Part shown: positions 5,950 through 55,896 of the stretch, piece after piece
Layout of the letters: the number at the start of each line of letters is the position of its first letter
How positions within the stretch are numbered: the stretch's first letter is position 1
NCBI RefSeq assembly: GCF_000026545.1
Contig: NC_011601.1
From: Escherichia coli O127:H6 str. E2348/69
GTDB lineage: Bacteria > Pseudomonadota > Gammaproteobacteria > Enterobacterales > Enterobacteriaceae
Direction: 5' to 3' (one strand)
DNA length: 64,000 nt
The notes under the pieces: model-generated
Told to the model about the DNA's origin: nothing
Databases searched by the model: none
What the model saw: only the letters and a program-made list of their open reading frames with translations
Program-made: the position numbers and the translations under genes

Positions 5950-7581
5950 ATGACCAACATCACCAAGAGAAGTTTAGTAGCAGCTGGCGTTTTGGCTGCG
6001 CTTATGGCAGGGAATGTCGCGCTGGCAGCTGATGTACCCGCAGGTGTCACACTGGCGGAAAAACAAACGCTGGTACGTAACAATGGTTCAGAAGTTCAGT
6101 CATTAGATCCGCACAAAATTGAAGGTGTTCCGGAGTCTAATATCAGCCGAGACCTGTTTGAAGGCTTACTGGTCAGCGATCTTGACGGTCATCCGGCACC
6201 TGGCGTCGCTGAATCATGGGATAATAAAGACGCGAAAGTCTGGACCTTCCATTTGCGTAAAGATGCGAAATGGTCTGATGGCACGCCAGTTACAGCACAA
6301 GACTTTGTGTATAGCTGGCAACGTTCTGTTGATCCAAACACTGCTTCTCCGTATGCCAGTTATCTGCAATATGGGCATATCGCCGGTATTGATGAAATTC
6401 TTGAAGGGAAAAAACCGATTACCGATCTCGGCGTGAAAGCTATTGATGATCACACATTAGAAGTCACCTTAAGTGAACCTGTTCCGTACTTCTATAAATT
6501 ACTTGTTCACCCATCAACTTCACCGGTGCCAAAAGCCGCTATCGAGAAATTCGGCGAAAAATGGACCCAGCCTGGTAATATCGTCACCAACGGTGCCTAT
6601 ACCTTAAAAGATTGGGTCGTAAACGAACGAATCGTTCTTGAACGCAGCCCGACCTACTGGAACAACGCGAAAACCGTTATTAACCAGGTAACCTATTTGC
6701 CTATTGCTTCTGAAGTTACCGATGTCAACCGCTACCGTAGTGGTGAAATCGACATGACTTATAACAACATGCCGATCGAATTGTTCCAGAAGCTGAAAAA
6801 AGAGATCCCGGACGAAGTTCACGTTGATCCATACCTGTGCACTTACTATTACGAAATTAACAACCAGAAACCGCCATTTAATGACGTGCGTGTGCGTACC
6901 GCACTGAAATTGGGTATGGACCGCGATATCATTGTTAATAAAGTGAAAGCGCAGGGCGACATGCCCGCCTATGGTTACACTCCACCATATACTGATGGCG
7001 CAAAATTGACTCAGCCGGAATGGTTTGGCTGGAGCCAGGAAAAACGTAACGAAGAAGCGAAAAAACTGCTGGCTGAAGCGGGTTATACCGCAGACAAACC
7101 GTTGACCATCAACCTGTTGTATAACACCTCCGATCTGCATAAAAAGCTGGCGATTGCTGCCTCTTCATTGTGGAAGAAAAACATTGGTGTAAACGTCAAA
7201 CTGGTTAACCAGGAGTGGAAAACGTTCCTCGACACCCGTCACCAGGGCACTTTTGATGTGGCCCGTGCAGGCTGGTGTGCAGACTACAACGAACCAACTT
7301 CCTTCCTGAACACCATGCTGTCGAACAGCTCAATGAATACCGCGCATTATAAGAGCCCGGCCTTTGACAGCATTATGGCGGAAACGCTGAAAGTGACTGA
7401 CGAGGCGCAGCGTACAGCTCTGTACACTAAAGCAGAACAACAGCTGGATAAGGATTCGGCCATTGTTCCTGTTTATTACTACGTGAATGCGCGTTTGGTG
7501 AAACCGTGGGTTGGTGGCTATACCGGCAAAGATCCGCTGGATAATACCTACACCCGGAATATGTACATTGTGAAGCACTAA
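5950..7581 (+). CDS. oppA: periplasmic oligopeptide-binding protein OppA
   Basis: ORF track 5878..7581; start moved to ATG 5950 (MTNITKRSLVAAGVLAALMAGNVALA signal peptide); first gene of opp operon. Confidence 0.95.
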   Translation: MTNITKRSLVAAGVLAALMAGNVALAADVPAGVTLAEKQTLVRNNGSEVQSLDPHKIEGVPESNISRDLFEGLLVSDLDGHPAPGVAESWDNKDAKVWTFHLRKDAKWSDGTPVTAQDFVYSWQRSVDPNTASPYASYLQYGHIAGIDEILEGKKPITDLGVKAIDDHTLEVTLSEPVPYFYKLLVHPSTSPVPKAAIEKFGEKWTQPGNIVTNGAYTLKDWVVNERIVLERSPTYWNNAKTVINQVTYLPIASEVTDVNRYRSGEIDMTYNNMPIELFQKLKKEIPDEVHVDPYLCTYYYEINNQKPPFNDVRVRTALKLGMDRDIIVNKVKAQGDMPAYGYTPPYTDGAKLTQPEWFGWSQEKRNEEAKKLLAEAGYTADKPLTINLLYNTSDLHKKLAIAASSLWKKNIGVNVKLVNQEWKTFLDTRHQGTFDVARAGWCADYNEPTSFLNTMLSNSSMNTAHYKSPAFDSIMAETLKVTDEAQRTALYTKAEQQLDKDSAIVPVYYYVNARLVKPWVGGYTGKDPLDNTYTRNMYIVKH

Positions 7582-23705: not shown

Positions 23706-24394
23706 ATTTTATTTAATAGCTCCCGTTCGTGTTTTCTCTTGTTAATGGCATCTTCAGTAAATACAGGGTTACTGATAGTGACACCAATTTCAAAACAACC
23801 TTCAGACGTATTAACGTTTGGTAATAACGTTTCCATTATCGCGTCCTCAACAATGAATTTTGTGATGTGGTGCCTGGTGCCTCCAGGTGACGTTAACCAG
23901 TTAACAATTAACGCCGGATACAGAGAATCCACCCATAACACTGTTTTTGGTTTTAACTGTTCCGCGTGCGCTCAGCCGCATTCACCGCATCACAAAATTC
24001 ACTTTAAAAACGGCGGCAGAGCAGTCACGGAGTAAAACTGATACCGCCAAACGTCACCAGAAAATTGATAACAGAGGGCGTTGCAGCGGGGTTGTCGCTT
24101 AAGCGTATGGTCAACCTGACAACCCGGTGTCCTCAACGGGGAAGGAATAACCCCGCCATACTTACCGCCGCGCCATTTCGCGGAGTGCCACAACCGGAAG
24201 CGCACGGTCGAACTAAATTTAACGACACCGTACAGAGAGACCAATTTTGCCGTGCGCTTTCGCGTTATGCCCTGACTTTTCAGGGACATATCCTTTCAGT
24301 AAACTGTCAGTGCCGGATGTTCACCCGTGTCCGGCGCACGCACTCCACCTGACCCGTGGAGAACTCCTTAATTACCAACCCTCAGGAGGGTGAA

Positions 24395-31484: not shown

Positions 31485-31767
31485 TTCCTTAATTTTCCCT
31501 TAACAATTTAGGGTGCTAAACTTTTTTGCGCAGTTTACATAAAAAAATAGTGCGTACGCAAAAACTATCTAACATGATGAGCTTTAACCGGGAAATTTGT
31601 ATATGTTGTGAGCATAAAGTTGGCTGAGAAATCTAAAACGGGTAGAATGACTGCGGGTGCTTGAGGCTATCTGTCTCAGGCATGAACACCAAAAGGCAGA
31701 TAGAGAAAAGCCCCAGTTAACATTACGCGTCCGGCAAGACGCTTAACATTAATCTGAGGCCATATCT

Positions 31768-31980
31768 ATGCTCTACACACGTAGGTTAGCCTCTTACGTG
31801 CCGAAAGGCAAGGAGAAGCAGGCTATGAAGCAGCAAAAGGCGATGTTAATCGCCCTGATCGTCATCTGTTTAACCGTCATAATGACGGCACTGGTAACGA
31901 GGAAAGACCTCTGCGAGGTACGAATCCGAACCGGCCAGACGGAGGTCGCTGTCTTCACAGCTTACGAACCTGAGGAGTAA
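31768..31980 (+). CDS. mok: Mok-like overlapping reading frame of a hok-family type I toxin locus
   Basis: 70-aa frame whose C-terminal 51 codons are hok; arrangement as in hok/sok loci. Confidence 0.45.
   Translation: MLYTRRLASYVPKGKEKQAMKQQKAMLIALIVICLTVIMTALVTRKDLCEVRIRTGQTEVAVFTAYEPEE
31825..31980 (+). CDS. hok: Hok-family type I toxin (HokD/RelF-like, 51 aa)
   Basis: MKQQKAMLIALIVICLTVIMTALVTRKDLCEVRIRTGQTEVAVFTAYEPEE; AGGAG at 31811-31815. Confidence 0.85.
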   Translation: MKQQKAMLIALIVICLTVIMTALVTRKDLCEVRIRTGQTEVAVFTAYEPEE

Positions 31981-51157: not shown

Positions 51158-51180
51158 CCCCGCCGCGTGCGGGTTTTTTA
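51158..51180 (+). terminator. intra-operon hairpin plus T-run upstream of major tail gene
   Basis: cccgc-cgcgt-gcggg followed by tttttt. Confidence 0.5.
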
Positions 51181-51195
51181 TTATCAGGCGGCAGA

Positions 51196-51912
51196 ATGTC
51201 TGCTTTGTATGAACGCTCACAGCTGACGCAGGTGATGATTTCATCTGCCCCGGCGACTGCTGAAACTATGGATAAGGCGGAATATCTGCGCCTGGATTGC
51301 ACCATCAAGGAAGTCCAGTTCACCGCCGGTCAGAAACAGGATATTGATGTGACCACGCTCTGCTCCACCGAGCAGGAGAACATCAACGGTCTGGGGGCGT
51401 CGTCTGAGATTTCCATGTCGGGTAATTTTTATCTGAATCAGGCCCAGAACGCCCTGCGTGATGCCTATGACAATGACGCGTTGTATGCGTTTAAGGTGCT
51501 GTTTCCGTCCGGTAAGGGCTTTAAGTTCCTGGCGGAAGTGCGTCAGCACACCTGGTCATCCGGTACCAACGGCGTGGTGGCAGCAACGTTTTCACTGCGT
51601 ATGAAAGGCAAACCGGTGTCCTTTGTGGTACCGCTGGCGTTTGTGAAAAATCTGGATAAAACACTTACCGTGAATACAGGTGCGCTGCTGACAATGTCAG
51701 TCAGTGCCAACGGGGGAACGCCGCCGTATAAATACGCCTGGAAGAAGGATGGTCAGCCGGTTGACGGGCAGACGACAGACACCTTCAGTAAGCCAGGTGC
51801 GCAGTCCGCTGATGCGGGGAAATATACCTGCGTGGTGACCGATTCGGCAGAGAAAGCACAGAGTGTGACGTCTGTTGAATGCACCGTGACAGTGAGCGCA
51901 GCCGCCGGATAA
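51196..51912 (+). CDS. major tail protein with C-terminal Ig-like domain
   Basis: Start moved to ATG 51196 (MSALYERS...); C-terminal ...PPYKYAWKKDGQPVDGQTTDTFSKPGAQSADAGKYTCVVTD Ig-like segment. Confidence 0.7.
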   Translation: MSALYERSQLTQVMISSAPATAETMDKAEYLRLDCTIKEVQFTAGQKQDIDVTTLCSTEQENINGLGASSEISMSGNFYLNQAQNALRDAYDNDALYAFKVLFPSGKGFKFLAEVRQHTWSSGTNGVVAATFSLRMKGKPVSFVVPLAFVKNLDKTLTVNTGALLTMSVSANGGTPPYKYAWKKDGQPVDGQTTDTFSKPGAQSADAGKYTCVVTDSAEKAQSVTSVECTVTVSAAAG

Positions 51913-51926
51913 GGGGATGGGTCATC

Positions 51927-52301
51927 ATGAAAAAGGATCTGAAAACGCTGGCGCTGGCCAGACTGTCAGGGTTTCGTCATAAAACGGTGAAGGTGCCGGA
52001 ATGGGGTAATGTCAGCGTGGTGCTGCGGGAGCCTTCGGCAGAGGCCTGGTATCTGTGGCAGGAAGTGCTCAATGGTGATGGAGAGGATGACGATACCCTG
52101 TCGGTGGTGGCGAAAACCCGCCGTAACCTGGAAGCGGATGTGACGCTGTTCTGCGATGTCCTGTGTGATACGGATCTGCAGCGGGTGTTCGCTCCGGACG
52201 ACCGTGAGCAGGTGCTGGCCGTCTATGGTCCGGTACATGCCCGGTTGCTGCGTCAGGCACTGGAACTGATCGCTGATGCAGAGTCGGCCAGAAAAAAGTA
52301 G
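51927..52301 (+). CDS. tail assembly chaperone G
   Basis: Start ATG 51927 (MKKDLKTLALARL...); ends at slippery A_AAA_AAG + TAG. Confidence 0.7.
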   Translation: MKKDLKTLALARLSGFRHKTVKVPEWGNVSVVLREPSAEAWYLWQEVLNGDGEDDDTLSVVAKTRRNLEADVTLFCDVLCDTDLQRVFAPDDREQVLAVYGPVHARLLRQALELIADAESARKK

Positions 52302-52606
52302 CCCGCCCGGAAATTCGCTTTCTGATGCGACTTGCGCTCCGTCTGGGGCGCACCTTATCCGAACTGCGGCACAGCCTGAGTGTGAGCGAGGCGATGATGT
52401 GGATGGAGTTCGACAGGGTATCCCCGCTGGGTGATGAGCGCGGGGATATCCGTAATGCACAGATCGTGAAAGCGGTTTTTGGGGCACAGGGGATGAATGT
52501 TGCACTGAAGGACGCCATGCTCTGCTGGGGCGAGGATGAGGATAAGCCGGAGGTGGATCCGTTTGCGGCGCTGGAAGACGCGCTGAGCTTTGCAGCACAG
52601 TCATGA
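51927..52606 (+). CDS. tail assembly chaperone G-T fusion via -1 programmed ribosomal frameshift
   Basis: Downstream ORF (track 52325..52606) is in the -1 frame relative to G and is open back into G; slippery heptamer at 52292-52298. Confidence 0.6.
52292..52298 (+). promoter_or_regulatory. -1 frameshift slippery heptamer A_AAA_AAG
   Basis: In G frame: gcc aga aaa aag tag; X_XXY_YYZ pattern immediately before the G stop. Confidence 0.65.
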
Positions 52607-52614
52607 ATGATGAG

Positions 52615-52636
52615 AACCGCTGAGGCGGTTTTTTTA
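52615..52636 (+). terminator. hairpin plus T-run between GT and tape-measure gene
   Basis: aaccgc-tgag-gcggtt followed by ttttt. Confidence 0.4.
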
Positions 52637-52653: not shown

Positions 52654-55600
52654 ATGGCGACGTTACGTGAACTGATTATCAAAATTTCGGCAAATTCGCA
52701 GTCATTCCAGTCGGAGATCCAGCGGGCTTCCCGCATGGGCAGTGAATATTACCGGACCCTGCAGAATGGCGGGCGTCAGGCTGCCGCAGTCGCCCGGGAG
52801 CAGCGACGCGCCCTGGCTGAGCTGAACAGCCAGTTGACGGAAATCCGCGCTTCAGCTGCCGGAACGGCGGGGGCATTTGCAGGTGCCTTTGCCACCGGAC
52901 ACCTGATTTCTCTGGCCGATGAATGGAGTTCCGTGAATGCCCGACTGAAACAGGCGTCGCAGTCATCCGATGAATTTTCGTCATCACAGAAAGTGCTGAT
53001 GGATATCAGCCAGCGGACGGGCACGGCATTTTCAGATAATGCGGCCCTGTTTGCCCGCTCGGCAGCCTCAATGCGTGAATATGGTTACAGTGCTGATGAT
53101 GTGCTGAAGGTGACGGAGGCCATTTCCACGGGGCTGAAAATCTCCGGTGTCAGTACGGCAGAGGCGGGCTCGGTGATCACCCAGTTCAGCCAGGCGCTGG
53201 CACAGGGTGTGTTACGCGGTGAGGAATTTAATTCGGTCAATGAAAGCGGAGACCGGATCGTACGTGCACTGGCTGCGGGTATGGGCGTGGCCCGTAAAGA
53301 CCTTAAGGCGATGGCGGACGACGGCAAACTGACGGCGGATAAAGTCGTTCCTGCGTTAATCAGCCAGCTGGGGGTATTGCGTGATGAATATGCCGCCATG
53401 CCGGAAACGGTCTCTGACGGGATCACAAAGGTGGAAAACGCCTTTATGGCCTGGGTGGGTGGCGCGAATGAAGCCAGCGGAGCGACGAAAACGCTCTCCG
53501 GCGTGCTGAACGGTGTTGCCGGTAATATTGATAATGTGGCAACAGCCGCTGGGGCGCTGGTTGCCGTCGGGGTTGCCCGGTACTTTGGCAATATGGCCTC
53601 CGGAGCGGTGTCTGCCACGGCAGGACTTGTGACGGCAGCACGTAATGAAGTGGCACTGGCGGAAGCACAGCTCAGGGGGACGCAGATTGCCACGGCGCGG
53701 GCAAGGGCAGCCGTGTACCGTGCACAGCAGGCTGTGGCGGCAGCCCGCGGGACGGAGATGCAGATTGCTGCAGAAGCCCGTCTGGCGGCCACACAGGAAC
53801 GCCTGAACAGAAATATTGCTGCCAGAACCGCAGCCCAGAATGCGCTGAACAGTACAACGGCGGTGGGCTCACGTCTGATGACTGGTGCGTTGGGACTGGT
53901 TGGTGGCGTACCCGGACTGGTGATGCTGGGGGCAGCAGCATGGTATACGCTGTACCAGAATCAGGAGCAGGCCAGGGAGTCAGCGCGCCAGTATGCACTG
54001 ACGATAGATGAAATCGCGCATAAAACGCTGTCAATGTCTTTGCCTGAAGCCTCAGATAATGAAGGACGAACACGGGCGGCGCTGGCAGAGCAGAACCGGC
54101 TGATTGATGAACAGGCCAGCCGGGTGAAATCCCTGCAGGAAAAAATCGCTGGATATCAGTATGTTCTGGCTAACCCTGGCTGGACAACCGGTGACGGATT
54201 CATGATAAACCATCTGACATCGGTGAAGACCGTGACGGAAGGGCTTTCTCAGGCAACAGAGCAGCTTGCCGTTGAGCAGTCCCGTCTGGCACAGATGCAG
54301 GAAAAAGCGCAGTCCATTCAGGATGTGCTTGCCGGGCTGGAAGACCGTCGTGTGGCGTTAATTCGTCAGCAGGCGGCAGAGCAGAATAAGGTGTACCAGT
54401 CCATGCTGGTTATGAACGGTCAGCATACGGAATTCAACCGTCTGCTGGGGCTGGGTAATGAACTGCTTCAGCAGCGGCAGGGACTGGTGAATGTGCCGTT
54501 ACGGCTGCCACAGGCCACTCTGGATGATAAACAGCAGAGTGCCCTGACAAAAACAGAGCGTGAGCTGGCCCTGTCCAGACTGAAAGGGGAAGAAAAAGAG
54601 CGTGTCCGACTGGGGTATGCGGCGGATGACCTCGGTTTTGTGGGTGAACCGTATCAGGAGGCGAGACAACGTTATATCAGTAATGCCCTGGAAGCCTGGC
54701 GCAATAACGAGGCGAATAAACCCAAATCCCGGGGTGGAAAATCAGAGACGGAAAAAGCGGAAGACAGTTTTTCCCGGCTGCTGAAGCAGCAGAAAGAGCA
54801 ATTGGCACTTGCGGGGCAGAATACAGAGCTGGCGAAGCTGAAATACCAGACTGCGCAGGGCGAACTGAAAACCCTGACGGAGATGCAGAAGCAGGAACTG
54901 CTGCGCAATGCGGCCCTGATTGACCAGCAAAAAATCCGGGAGCAGTTGCGGTCCCGGGAAGAGACCCTGAAGAATGATAATGTGGCTGCGCGTGCATCAA
55001 ATGAAGCGGAACTGCTGGGGTACGGGCAGGGAGAGCGGCTCCGTGAACGCATGCGGGAGTTGCAGCAGATCCGCGACAGTTTCCGCCAGAAGGATGCGGA
55101 CCTTCAGTCTCAGTATCAGACCGGGGATATCAGTGAGGATTTTTACAGACAGGCTCTGGCACAGAACGCGCAGTATCTGAGTGAACGTCTGAAAGAGCAG
55201 GAAGCCTTTTATGCCGAATCGGATGTGCAGCGTGCGGACTGGCAGAAAGGGCTGCAGGAGGGATTCAGTAACTGGGTGGATAATGCGTCCGATTACGCCT
55301 CACAGGCAGCACAGCTGGCGACGGAGGGTATCTCAGGGATGGTGAATAACATCACGGAGATGCTGAACGGAAATAAAGTGGAATGGCGCAGCTGGGCCTC
55401 ATCAGTGCTGCAGGAAATATCAAAAGTTCTTATGAATGCCGCGATTGTCAACGGGATCAAGACGGCGGCAAACAGTATGTCCGGAGCGGGAGGATTTATC
55501 GGCAGTATTGGTAGCTGGCTGGGCGGTGCGGTGGCCAATGCAAAAGGCGGGGTGTATACCTCGGCAAACCTGAGTGCGTACAGCAACAGTATTGTGGATA

Positions 55601-55896
55601 CGCCCACGTACTTTGCCTTTGCAAAAGGGGCGGGACTGATGGGGGAGGCCGGTCCTGAAGCCATTATGCCCCTGACCCGGGCGGCGGATGGCTCGCTGGG
55701 TGTGCGAGCGGTGGGCAGTATGAACGGCAGTGCAGGTCTGGTGTATTCCCCGGTCTACCATATCGCCATTCAGAATGACGGGACTAATGGCCAGATAGGG
55801 CCGGAAGCTGCGGGCAGCCTTGTGCAACTGATTGACCAGCGGGTGCAGGCGGTGATGCTGTCCATGCGACGTGACGGAGGAATGCTGAGTGGCTGA
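52654..55896 (+). CDS. tail tape-measure protein (lambda H-like)
   Basis: 1080 aa, alpha-helical/Ala-rich, directly after G/GT. Confidence 0.9.
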   Translation: MATLRELIIKISANSQSFQSEIQRASRMGSEYYRTLQNGGRQAAAVAREQRRALAELNSQLTEIRASAAGTAGAFAGAFATGHLISLADEWSSVNARLKQASQSSDEFSSSQKVLMDISQRTGTAFSDNAALFARSAASMREYGYSADDVLKVTEAISTGLKISGVSTAEAGSVITQFSQALAQGVLRGEEFNSVNESGDRIVRALAAGMGVARKDLKAMADDGKLTADKVVPALISQLGVLRDEYAAMPETVSDGITKVENAFMAWVGGANEASGATKTLSGVLNGVAGNIDNVATAAGALVAVGVARYFGNMASGAVSATAGLVTAARNEVALAEAQLRGTQIATARARAAVYRAQQAVAAARGTEMQIAAEARLAATQERLNRNIAARTAAQNALNSTTAVGSRLMTGALGLVGGVPGLVMLGAAAWYTLYQNQEQARESARQYALTIDEIAHKTLSMSLPEASDNEGRTRAALAEQNRLIDEQASRVKSLQEKIAGYQYVLANPGWTTGDGFMINHLTSVKTVTEGLSQATEQLAVEQSRLAQMQEKAQSIQDVLAGLEDRRVALIRQQAAEQNKVYQSMLVMNGQHTEFNRLLGLGNELLQQRQGLVNVPLRLPQATLDDKQQSALTKTERELALSRLKGEEKERVRLGYAADDLGFVGEPYQEARQRYISNALEAWRNNEANKPKSRGGKSETEKAEDSFSRLLKQQKEQLALAGQNTELAKLKYQTAQGELKTLTEMQKQELLRNAALIDQQKIREQLRSREETLKNDNVAARASNEAELLGYGQGERLRERMRELQQIRDSFRQKDADLQSQYQTGDISEDFYRQALAQNAQYLSERLKEQEAFYAESDVQRADWQKGLQEGFSNWVDNASDYASQAAQLATEGISGMVNNITEMLNGNKVEWRSWASSVLQEISKVLMNAAIVNGIKTAANSMSGAGGFIGSIGSWLGGAVANAKGGVYTSANLSAYSNSIVDTPTYFAFAKGAGLMGEAGPEAIMPLTRAADGSLGVRAVGSMNGSAGLVYSPVYHIAIQNDGTNGQIGPEAAGSLVQLIDQRVQAVMLSMRRDGGMLSG

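What the first reader, a model, noticed from the sequence alone, without database searches (positions are those of the whole stretch)
52280..52330. Programmed -1 frameshift site (A_AAA_AAG) joining tail chaperones G and T
The heptamer A_AAA_AAG sits in the zero frame immediately before the G stop codon, and the downstream ORF is open in the -1 frame across it. This matches the conserved G/GT mechanism of long-tailed phages.
Basis: partly seen in the sequence, partly recalled or inferred. Interest (0 to 1): 0.3.

Follow-up and report, generated by a model that had tools for sequence, protein, structure and literature searches.

The report
Known tail-chaperone G/GT frameshift site
This is a real but ordinary −1 ribosomal frameshift signal in a lambdoid E. 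coli prophage; it makes a long (GT) and a short (G) tail-assembly chaperone from one gene pair, and this exact sequence was already shown to shift at about 7% in a published reporter assay.

Summary
A 124-codon ORF (51927-52301; Pfam Phage_TAC_1, E=1.7e-61) ends AGA AAA AAG TAG. The heptamer A_AAA_AAG (52292-52298) is in X_XXY_YYZ phase and abuts the stop. The −1 frame opens only at 52277 and runs to 52606. It encodes a lambda-T-type domain (Phage_tail_T, E=6.7e-18). The pair lies between the major tail gene and the tape-measure gene.

The first ATG of the T frame (52325) has no Shine-Dalgarno sequence, and conserved residues (P, F) lie upstream of it. Eight homologues at 35-67% identity all keep T in the −1 frame. 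All place an A_AAG Lys codon at the junction (A_AAA_AAG, G_GGA_AAG, G_GAA_AAG, or A_AAG plus stop). GenBank annotates HK97 gp13/gp14 (63% identical) as a −1 frameshift.

The decisive evidence is published. Window 52272-52346 is identical to the listed core of an insert tested by Antonov et al. 2013 (NAR, PMC3711429, Table S2, cluster Phage_TAC), which gave 7% ± 0.79 frameshifting in E. coli.

I found no dnaX-like stimulators. RefSeq still annotates T as a separate gene.

Verdict: confirmed, already known, low interest.

The parts
51927..52301 (+). G-type tail assembly chaperone ORF (124 aa plus TAG), the product of standard decoding
   Evidence: Translation. PF06222 Phage_TAC_1, residues 1-124 of a 124-position profile, E=1.7e-61. 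phrog_344 tail assembly chaperone. RefSeq WP_000710949.1 'phage tail assembly chaperone'. SD-like AAGGGGA upstream, -8.4 kcal/mol.
52292..52298 (+). Slippery heptamer A_AAA_AAG in the 0 frame (Lys-Lys); after a -1 slip it is read as AAA AAA
   Evidence: Invariant in 45 near-identical sequences in which 77 of 739 columns vary. Lies within the published tested insert.
52299..52301 (+). 0-frame TAG stop of G, directly abutting the heptamer
   Evidence: Among 101 cluster representatives of G-like length (118-140 aa), 88 end in Lys immediately before the stop.
52298..52606 (+). T extension decoded in the -1 frame after the shift (102 aa, VARPEIRFLM...FAAQS, stop TGA 52604-52606). The GT product is join(51927..52298, 52298..52606), 226 aa.
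   Evidence: -1 frame open 52277-52606. PF06223 Phage_tail_T E=1.5e-18. The fused 226-aa sequence matches phrog_14766 end to end (2-225 against 2-224 of 224, E=1.9e-85). P11 and F15 upstream of the first Met are at least 90% conserved.
52325..52606 (+). The 93-aa 'phage tail assembly protein T' ORF as annotated in RefSeq. Probably not an independent gene.
   Evidence: Annotated separately with no join. Anti-SD pairing upstream is only -3.5 kcal/mol, at the median of background, against -5.8 to -9.5 for neighbouring starts.
51196..51912 (+). Major tail subunit with a C-terminal Ig-like domain (upstream neighbour; inferred binding partner of the T domain)
   Evidence: Phage_TTP_11 and Phage_tail_2 (both below Pfam's curated cut-off) plus Ig domains above cut-off. 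phrog_158 major tail protein. RefSeq 'major tail subunit'.
52654..55896 (+). Tape measure protein (downstream neighbour; inferred binding partner of G)
   Evidence: PF06120, PF20155 and PF09718. phrog_339.

Best explanation
This is a programmed -1 ribosomal frameshift of the G/GT type, in an HK97-like tail module of a lambdoid E. coli prophage. The window matches E. coli O127:H6 E2348/69.

Most ribosomes translate the chaperone gene to ...Arg-Lys-Lys and stop at TAG 52299, making the 124-aa G protein. A minority slip back one base. This happens while tRNA-Lys occupies AAA/AAG of A_AAA_AAG, or while the last tRNA-Lys sits on AAG in the P site with TAG waiting in the A site. The tRNA re-pairs with AAA/AAA, the ribosome reads GTA (Val) next, and it continues to 52606, making a 226-aa GT fusion.

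What is shown: the sequence anatomy, the family memberships, the conservation, and about 7% shifting of this exact sequence in an E. coli reporter (published).

What is inferred from phage lambda: G coats the tape measure protein. The T domain of the rarer GT recruits the major tail protein. The roughly 13:1 ratio fixed by the slip rate is needed for correct tail assembly. Neither protein ends up in the virion.

No dedicated RNA stimulator is apparent. The shift-prone heptamer, and possibly the abutting stop codon, appear to be enough.
For: - Sequence and frames.
- Families: PF06222 on G and PF06223 on the -1 extension. The fused protein matches phrog_14766 over its full length.
- Synteny: tail terminator, major tail, G, T, tape measure, M, L.
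- No start codon in the T frame before 52325 and no SD there. Conserved Pro and Phe lie upstream of that Met in 10 aligned extensions.
- Eight distinct homologues (35-67% identity; hosts Escherichia, Salmonella, Klebsiella, Vibrio, Burkholderia), plus closer duplicates, all have T in the -1 frame with an A_AAG at the junction: A_AAA_AAG, G_GGA_AAG, G_GAA_AAG or A_AAG-stop.
- GenBank annotates HK97 gp14 as 'translated due to a -1 frameshift' and Bcep176 gp69' likewise.
- Antonov et al. 2013 (PMC3711429), Table S2, cluster Phage_TAC, frameshift ID 15618692: the listed insert is identical to window 52272-52346 and gave 7% +/- 0.79. The G_GGA_AAG relative gave 6%. That cluster is not among those the paper reports as showing internal initiation.
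- Within-window control: this is the only AAAAAAG with the required context.
- The Atkins et al. 2016 review (PMC5009743) gives the G/GT mechanism and the shiftiness of A_AAA_AAG and G_GGA_AAG in E. coli.
Against: - RefSeq, and the GenBank records of this lineage that I opened, annotate G and T as two separate genes with no slippage.
- The published assay used a reporter cassette, not the prophage. It cannot separate ribosomal from transcriptional slippage.
- No GT protein from this phage lineage has been detected directly, as far as I found.
- The roles of G and GT are extrapolated from lambda, whose G belongs to a different Pfam family and shows no BLASTP similarity.
- No stimulatory structure or SD was found, so the efficiency in the native mRNA is not predicted independently.
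Confidence: 0.93

Rival explanations
1. G and T are two independent genes, as RefSeq annotates them. T (93 aa) would be initiated at ATG 52325, perhaps by re-initiation after termination at TAG 52299, and the heptamer would be incidental.
For: The annotation shows two CDSs. ATG 52325 lies only 23 nt after the G stop, so termination-reinitiation is conceivable. AAAAAAG is common in the window.
Against: - There is no SD: -3.5 kcal/mol, at the background median.
- Residues encoded upstream of the ATG in the -1 frame (P11, F15) are at least 90% conserved across homologues.
- The -1 phase and the A_AAG junction are kept in all lineages examined.
- The identical sequence gives 7% GST-MBP fusion, and the cluster is not listed among those showing internal initiation.
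- The Phage_tail_T profile starts 10 residues after this Met, so Pfam coverage alone does not discriminate between the two readings.
Confidence: 0.04
2. The fusion arises by transcriptional slippage. RNA polymerase would add one A in the A-run, giving an mRNA in which G and T are in one frame.
For: The reporter assay cannot tell RNA-level from ribosome-level slippage. Relatives such as phi467 have 8 consecutive A.
Against: - The run here is only 6 A (52292-52297). The slippage-prone runs the paper cites are longer than 7 A.
- Family members with G_GGA_AAG (3 A) keep the same architecture. One of them shifted 6% in the same assay.
- What is conserved is the phase-specific X_XXA_AAG pattern, not the run length.
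Confidence: 0.02
3. The arrangement is a decayed gene in a defective prophage. An ancestral single GT gene would have been broken by a frameshift mutation in a homopolymer, with no programmed event.
For: Single-ORF G-T fusions exist in databases (P0001 222 aa, P0118 240 aa). Prophages often carry pseudogenes.
Against: - The same split arrangement is found at 100% identity in the listed E. coli genomes and at 99% or more in 871 records, in 92 phage records including Stx-converting phages, and in every divergent lineage examined.
- The rare fusions are singletons. One junction lacks the linker residues and another has an out-of-frame stretch, which is typical of indels or assembly errors.
Confidence: 0.01

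Closest known systems
Phage HK97 gp13/gp14 (tail assembly chaperone and its -1 frameshift extension)
   Same: G is 63% identical. Both belong to PF06222. The position between the major tail gene and the tape-measure gene is the same. T is in the -1 frame and the junction reads ...K-V..P..(K/R)FLM. GenBank annotates gp14 as 'translated due to a -1 frameshift'.
   Different: HK97 has G_GAA_AAG (imperfect P-site re-pairing) five codons before its stop. Here a perfect A_AAA_AAG abuts the stop. HK97 also carries a moron (gp15) between T and H, which is absent here.
Phage lambda G/GT (Levin, Hendrix and Casjens 1993; Xu, Hendrix and Duda 2004, 2013, 2014)
   Same: Same gene order V-G-T-H, same -1 direction, same heptamer phase, and a low-percent shift. 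The T domain is in the same Pfam family, PF06223. The mechanism is summarised in PMC5009743.
   Different: Lambda uses G_GGA_AAG with a 61-nt overlap window, eight codons before its stop. Lambda G is PF06894 (Phage_TAC_2), with no detectable BLASTP similarity to this G. Lambda's reported G:GT ratio is about 30:1, against about 13:1 implied by 7% here.
GeneTack 'Phage_TAC' frameshift cluster (Antonov et al. 2013, NAR 41:6514)
   Same: This locus is a member. The tested insert (frameshift ID 15618692) is identical to window 52272-52346. It gave 7% +/- 0.79.
   Different: Nothing differs at the sequence level. The assay was a GST-MBP cassette with short native flanks, not the phage.
E. coli dnaX tau/gamma frameshift
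   Same: The identical slippery heptamer A_AAA_AAG, the same host tRNA-Lys(mnm5s2UUU) and the same -1 direction.
   Different: dnaX has an upstream SD-like stimulator and a downstream hairpin, and shifts about 50%. Here no SD-like sequence is present (-3.0 kcal/mol) and downstream folding is no better than shuffles (z -0.76 and -1.0). Efficiency is about 7%. In dnaX the shifted product is the shorter one; here it is the longer one.

Membership tests
G/GT-type tail assembly chaperone -1 PRF (Xu, Hendrix and Duda 2004) | Two consecutive ORFs located between the major tail protein gene and the tape measure gene | tested here: met
   Major tail 51196-51912, G 51927-52301, T to 52606, tape measure 52654-55896.
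G/GT-type tail assembly chaperone -1 PRF (Xu, Hendrix and Duda 2004) | The downstream ORF is in the -1 frame, overlaps the end of the upstream ORF, and lacks its own translation signals | tested here: met
   -1 frame open 52277-52606. The first start codon is at 52325 and has no SD (-3.5 kcal/mol).
G/GT-type tail assembly chaperone -1 PRF (Xu, Hendrix and Duda 2004) | An in-phase slippery sequence (X_XXY_YYZ) inside the overlap, conserved in relatives | tested here: met
   A_AAA_AAG at 52292-52298. Relatives carry A_AAA_AAG, G_GGA_AAG, G_GAA_AAG or A_AAG-stop at the homologous point.
G/GT-type tail assembly chaperone -1 PRF (Xu, Hendrix and Duda 2004) | A fusion product is actually made at a low percentage | tested here: met
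   I ran no experiment. I verified that window 52272-52346 is identical to the insert that gave 7% +/- 0.79 in the published GST-MBP assay.
G/GT-type tail assembly chaperone -1 PRF (Xu, Hendrix and Duda 2004) | G and GT are both required, in a set ratio, for tail assembly and are absent from virions | not testable with these tools
   Known for lambda (PMC5009743). Inferred here.
Pfam PF06222 Phage_TAC_1 (HK97 gp13 type) | Full-length profile match above the gathering score | tested here: met
   206 bits against a cut-off of 25, positions 1-124 of 124. HK97 gp13 scores 203 bits.
Pfam PF06223 Phage_tail_T | Profile match above the gathering score in the -1 extension | tested here: met
   67.4 bits against a cut-off of 25.9, positions 1-71 of 73. 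Lambda T scores 54.1 bits against the same profile.
Pfam PF06894 Phage_TAC_2 (lambda gpG type) | Sequence similarity of the G part to lambda gpG | tested here: not met
   No Pfam hit to PF06894. BLASTP against lambda G gives E=6.5.
dnaX-type stimulated -1 PRF | An SD-like element about 10 nt upstream and a stable hairpin 5-9 nt downstream of the heptamer | tested here: not met
   Anti-SD pairing is -3.0 kcal/mol, and 70% of background windows pair at least as well. Downstream folds have z -0.76 and -1.0. The only good hairpin starts about 34 nt downstream.

The most novel reading that the evidence does not exclude
The stop codon abutting the last Lys codon may be a working part of the signal rather than a bystander. 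88 of 101 cluster representatives of G-like length end ...Lys-stop, and the large Klebsiella branch (GCA AAG TAA) has no canonical heptamer at all. In this subfamily the shift would occur largely as a single-tRNA P-site slip (A_AAG to AAA) while the ribosome waits for a release factor. The G:GT ratio would then be set by termination kinetics (RF1 for TAG here) and could respond to host physiology. Even more speculatively, the prophage's own tRNA-like element with a UUU anticodon loop (34807-34882) could influence decoding at the site.
Probability: 0.2. Interest if true: 0.3.

Novelty: already known. Interest (0 to 1): 0.08.

Why it matters
There is little new biology here. G/GT frameshifting has been a textbook case of recoding since 1993, it is known to be conserved in long-tailed phages, and this exact sequence has been assayed.

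The practical value is in annotation. RefSeq, and the GenBank records of this lineage that I opened (including JLK-2012, in E. coli genomes and Stx-converting phage records), list T as a free-standing 93-aa gene. The correct feature is join(51927..52298, 52298..52606) with ribosomal_slippage, which gives a 226-aa GT protein. This lineage is present in about 1,245 of 5,426 complete E. coli genomes.

A secondary point is that the family shows a graded series of slip sites, from a perfect heptamer to a bare A_AAG plus stop. That series could be used to study how much signal a low-level shift needs.

Tried and rejected
- **Downstream RNA stimulator.** Folding 52299-52400 and 52302-52350 gave z-scores of -0.76 and -1.0 against shuffles. 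The one solid hairpin (GCGCUCCG...GGGCGC, from about 52333) is about 34 nt from the heptamer and overlies the conserved LALRLGR peptide. I rejected it as a stimulator.
- **Upstream SD-like stimulator, as in dnaX.** None found.
- **Independent initiation of T.** No SD, conserved residues upstream of the ATG, and no report of internal initiation for this cluster.
- **Transcriptional slippage.** Only 6 A here, and G_GGA_AAG relatives behave the same way.
- **Natural single-frame fusions as support.** P0001 (222 aa) joins ...SARKK directly to EIRFLM and lacks the 4 linker residues. P0002 and P0004 have out-of-frame stretches or truncated ends. These are singletons, probably indels or assembly errors, so I did not use them as evidence.
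- **Scan of viral contigs for diverse relatives.** The 80 loci returned were all 96-100% identical. They only showed that the heptamer is invariant, which is weak evidence because only about 10% of columns vary.
- **BLASTP of T against lambda T.** It found nothing. The relationship is visible only through the shared Pfam profile.
- **Xu et al. 2004.** The paper is not held in the library. What I say about it rests on reviews that cite it and on my own knowledge.

Full report
**What is in the sequence**

The + strand at 52290-52301 reads AGA AAA AAG TAG. The ORF that ends there starts at ATG 51927, which has an SD-like AAGGGGA upstream (-8.4 kcal/mol). It encodes 124 residues ending ...AESARKK. 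The heptamer AAAAAAG occupies 52292-52298. Its first base is a third codon position, so the phase is A_AAA_AAG, the same phase as lambda's G_GGA_AAG. The TAG stop follows directly.

In the -1 frame there is a stop at 52274-52276. After it the frame is open from 52277 to a TGA at 52604-52606. A -1 shift can therefore be productive only within a 22-nt stretch, and the heptamer lies inside it. The shifted ribosome would read AAA AAA GTA GCC CGC..., giving ...SARKK-VARPEIRFLMRLALRLGR... and a 226-aa fusion.

**Is it more than chance?**

The heptamer alone is not informative. It occurs 27 times in the window, against 13.3 expected. The context is what matters.

- Of the 27 copies, only the one at 52292 is in phase in an ORF with at least 100 upstream codons, has a 0-frame stop within two codons, and has a -1 extension of more than 100 codons.
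- A relaxed search over all X_XXY_YYZ patterns gave three other 'candidates' (6406, 6409, 23173). At 6406 and 6409 the long frame is clearly the -1 frame itself (a 568-codon ORF), so the supposed 0 frame is spurious. I did not examine 23173 further.

**What the ORFs are**

- The 124-aa product matches Pfam Phage_TAC_1 (PF06222) end to end, E=1.7e-61.
- The -1 extension matches Phage_tail_T (PF06223), E=1.5e-18.
- The fused 226-aa sequence matches PHROG 14766 over its whole 224-position profile, E=1.9e-85.
- The neighbours run in this order: an HK97-gp10-like protein, a tail completion protein (gp17 family; RefSeq phage records call it tail terminator), a major tail subunit with an Ig-like C-terminal domain (51196-51912), G, T, a 1080-aa tape measure protein (52654-55896), then minor tail proteins M and L.

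This is the canonical position of the chaperone pair in long-tailed phages.

**Provenance**

- The 761-bp query is 100% identical in the E. coli genomes listed, including E2348/69 and NCTC86. It is at least 99% identical in 871 E. coli records and present in 1,245 of 5,426 complete genomes.
- It is 95-99.7% identical in 92 phage records, mostly Stx1a-, Stx2a- and Stx2c-converting phages such as 2851, YYZ-2008 and JLK-2012.
- Two anchor points 17,250 bp apart are collinear and identical with E. coli O127:H6 E2348/69.
- RefSeq and the opened GenBank records of this lineage annotate T as a separate 93-aa gene starting at ATG 52325, with no slippage.

**Evidence that T is not an independent gene**

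- The ORF listing shows that ATG 52325 is the first ATG/GTG/TTG in that frame after the stop at 52274.
- Its upstream 22 nt pair with the anti-SD at only -3.5 kcal/mol, the median of background windows. The starts of V, G, H, M and L score -5.8 to -9.5.
- In an alignment of ten -1-frame extensions, Pro11 and Phe15 are at least 90% conserved. Both lie upstream of that Met and can be reached only from the G frame.

**Comparative evidence**

G homologues were retrieved from the following phages.

| Phage | Identity to G (HK97 63% in both) |
|---|---|
| phi467 | 67% |
| HK97 | 63% |
| Salmonella FSL SP-016 | 57% |
| Klebsiella phage ST147-VIM1phi7.2 | 56% |
| Vibrio phage Pm34 | 50% |
| mEp390 | 48% |
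| Burkholderia Bcep176, phi1026b | 38%, 35% |

Enterobacter LAU1 (63% by tblastn) and a second Klebsiella phage were also examined.

In every one the T ORF is in the -1 frame, and the junction holds an A_AAG Lys codon followed by GTN. The slip sites differ:

- A_AAA_AAG in phi467, Pm34 and both Burkholderia phages
- G_GGA_AAG in SP-016 and mEp390
- G_GAA_AAG in HK97 and LAU1
- only A_AAG next to TAA in the Klebsiella phages

The productive window is as short as 7 nt in three of them.

Among 101 cluster representatives of G-like length (118-140 aa) from the protein search, 88 end in Lys immediately before the stop. The GenBank record of HK97 annotates gp14 as 'translated due to a -1 frameshift'. 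Bcep176 gp69' is annotated as the lambda T equivalent with a joined CDS.

Lambda itself has V-G-T-H with G_GGA_AAG in the same phase. Its T falls in the same Pfam family. Its G belongs to a different one (PF06894) and shows no BLASTP similarity to this G.

**Direct experimental evidence, from the literature**

Antonov et al. 2013 (NAR 41:6514, PMC3711429) predicted conserved frameshifts with GeneTack and tested 40 of them in a GST-MBP fusion reporter in E. coli.

[quoted passage not shown] - An exact-match search places this 75-mer at window 52272-52346.
- The second construct of the cluster carries G_GGA_AAG (the mEp390 type) and gave 6%.
- The cluster is not among those the authors list as showing internal initiation.

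**Mechanism**

Established knowledge comes from the Atkins et al. 2016 review (PMC5009743). E. coli has a single tRNA-Lys (mnm5s2UUU) that pairs better with AAA than with AAG, which makes A_AAG and especially A_AAA_AAG highly shift-prone. G_GGA_AAG is also highly shift-prone.

Here both tRNAs can re-pair perfectly after a -1 move. I found none of the extra stimulators used by dnaX:

- There is no SD-like element upstream (-3.0 kcal/mol).
- Downstream folding is not better than shuffled controls (z -0.76 and -1.0).

This fits a low-level shift like lambda's. Because TAG abuts the heptamer, a second chance to slip exists once AAG is in the P site and the A site awaits RF1. That step is my inference and is untested.

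The downstream biology is extrapolated from lambda and has not been shown for this HK97-type chaperone. In lambda, G coats the tape measure protein, the T part of GT recruits the major tail protein, and neither protein is in the virion.

**Rivals**

- Independent or re-initiated translation of T, as the annotation implies. This is contradicted by the missing SD, the conserved upstream residues and the reporter result.
- Transcriptional slippage. This is unlikely with only six A, and the G_GGA_AAG relatives behave alike.
- A pseudogenised fusion gene. This is contradicted by the universal split architecture. The rare single-ORF fusions in databases are singletons with junctions typical of indels.

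**Verdict**

The feature is already known, down to an assay of the identical sequence. The only correction is that G is HK97-gp13-type rather than lambda-gpG-type. The practical outcome is an annotation fix: join(51927..52298, 52298..52606), ribosomal_slippage.

Noticed in passing
window 34807-34882 (within the tRNA cluster 34730-34970): Between a prophage tRNA-Ile2(CAT) and a tRNA-Arg(UCU) lies a tRNA-like element that ARAGORN calls tRNA-Lys(UUU). The Rfam tRNA model scores it 28.2 bits, just under the gathering score of 29. It has C rather than U at position 33 and mismatches in the D and T stems. RefSeq leaves it unannotated in E2348/69. In another strain (OkiPb01678) this slot holds a second tRNA-Arg. 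Lys (AAA/AAG) and Arg (AGA) are the codons at the slip site AGA AAA AAG TAG. This is probably a decayed argN-type tRNA and a coincidence.
   Followed up: partly
window 52612-52635: A hairpin followed by a U-run (GAACCGC-UGAG-GCGGUUU, then more U; dG -10.8 kcal/mol, z -1.3) sits between the T stop (52606) and the tape-measure start (52654). It looks like an intrinsic terminator inside the tail operon. The consensus terminator scan missed it. HK97 has an annotated putative terminator in the corresponding gap, after its moron gene 15, which is absent here.
   Followed up: partly
window 51159-51183: A terminator-like GC hairpin (CCCGC-CGCGT-GCGGG) plus a T-run lies between the tail completion (gp17-family) gene (ends 51131) and the major tail gene (starts 51196). 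The HK97 record annotates a putative terminator in the same slot.
   Followed up: no
L008 1585-1600, L013 1585-1600 (Klebsiella prophage-like phages); 48 of 101 cluster representatives: The largest branch of the G family ends ...KAK-stop (GCT AAA GCA AAG TAA). It has no canonical X_XXY_YYZ heptamer, and the -1 frame opens only 7-13 nt before the stop. If GT is made there, it must rely on a single-tRNA A_AAG slip next to the stop codon.
   Followed up: partly
window 31655-31830, 24011-24062 (-), 36620-36796: Rfam matches above the gathering score elsewhere in the prophage: sok antitoxin RNA (117 bits), DicF antisense RNA (72.5 bits) and sRNA STnc100 (75.5 bits).
   Followed up: no
L003 796-1513 (Escherichia phage vB_EcoS_phi330, PV189401.1): In this otherwise 98.7% identical phage record the major tail gene is annotated as two pieces: a 'hypothetical protein' and a 'Hoc-like head decoration'. 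The G gene is given a longer upstream start. This suggests an indel or an annotation artefact in that record.
   Followed up: no
protein P0001 (JGI metagenome, 222 aa): A single-ORF G-T fusion reads ...SARKK-EIRFLM... and lacks the four linker residues VARP. An 11-nt deletion would produce this (my inference). It was seen on one contig only, and I did not examine the DNA.
   Followed up: no
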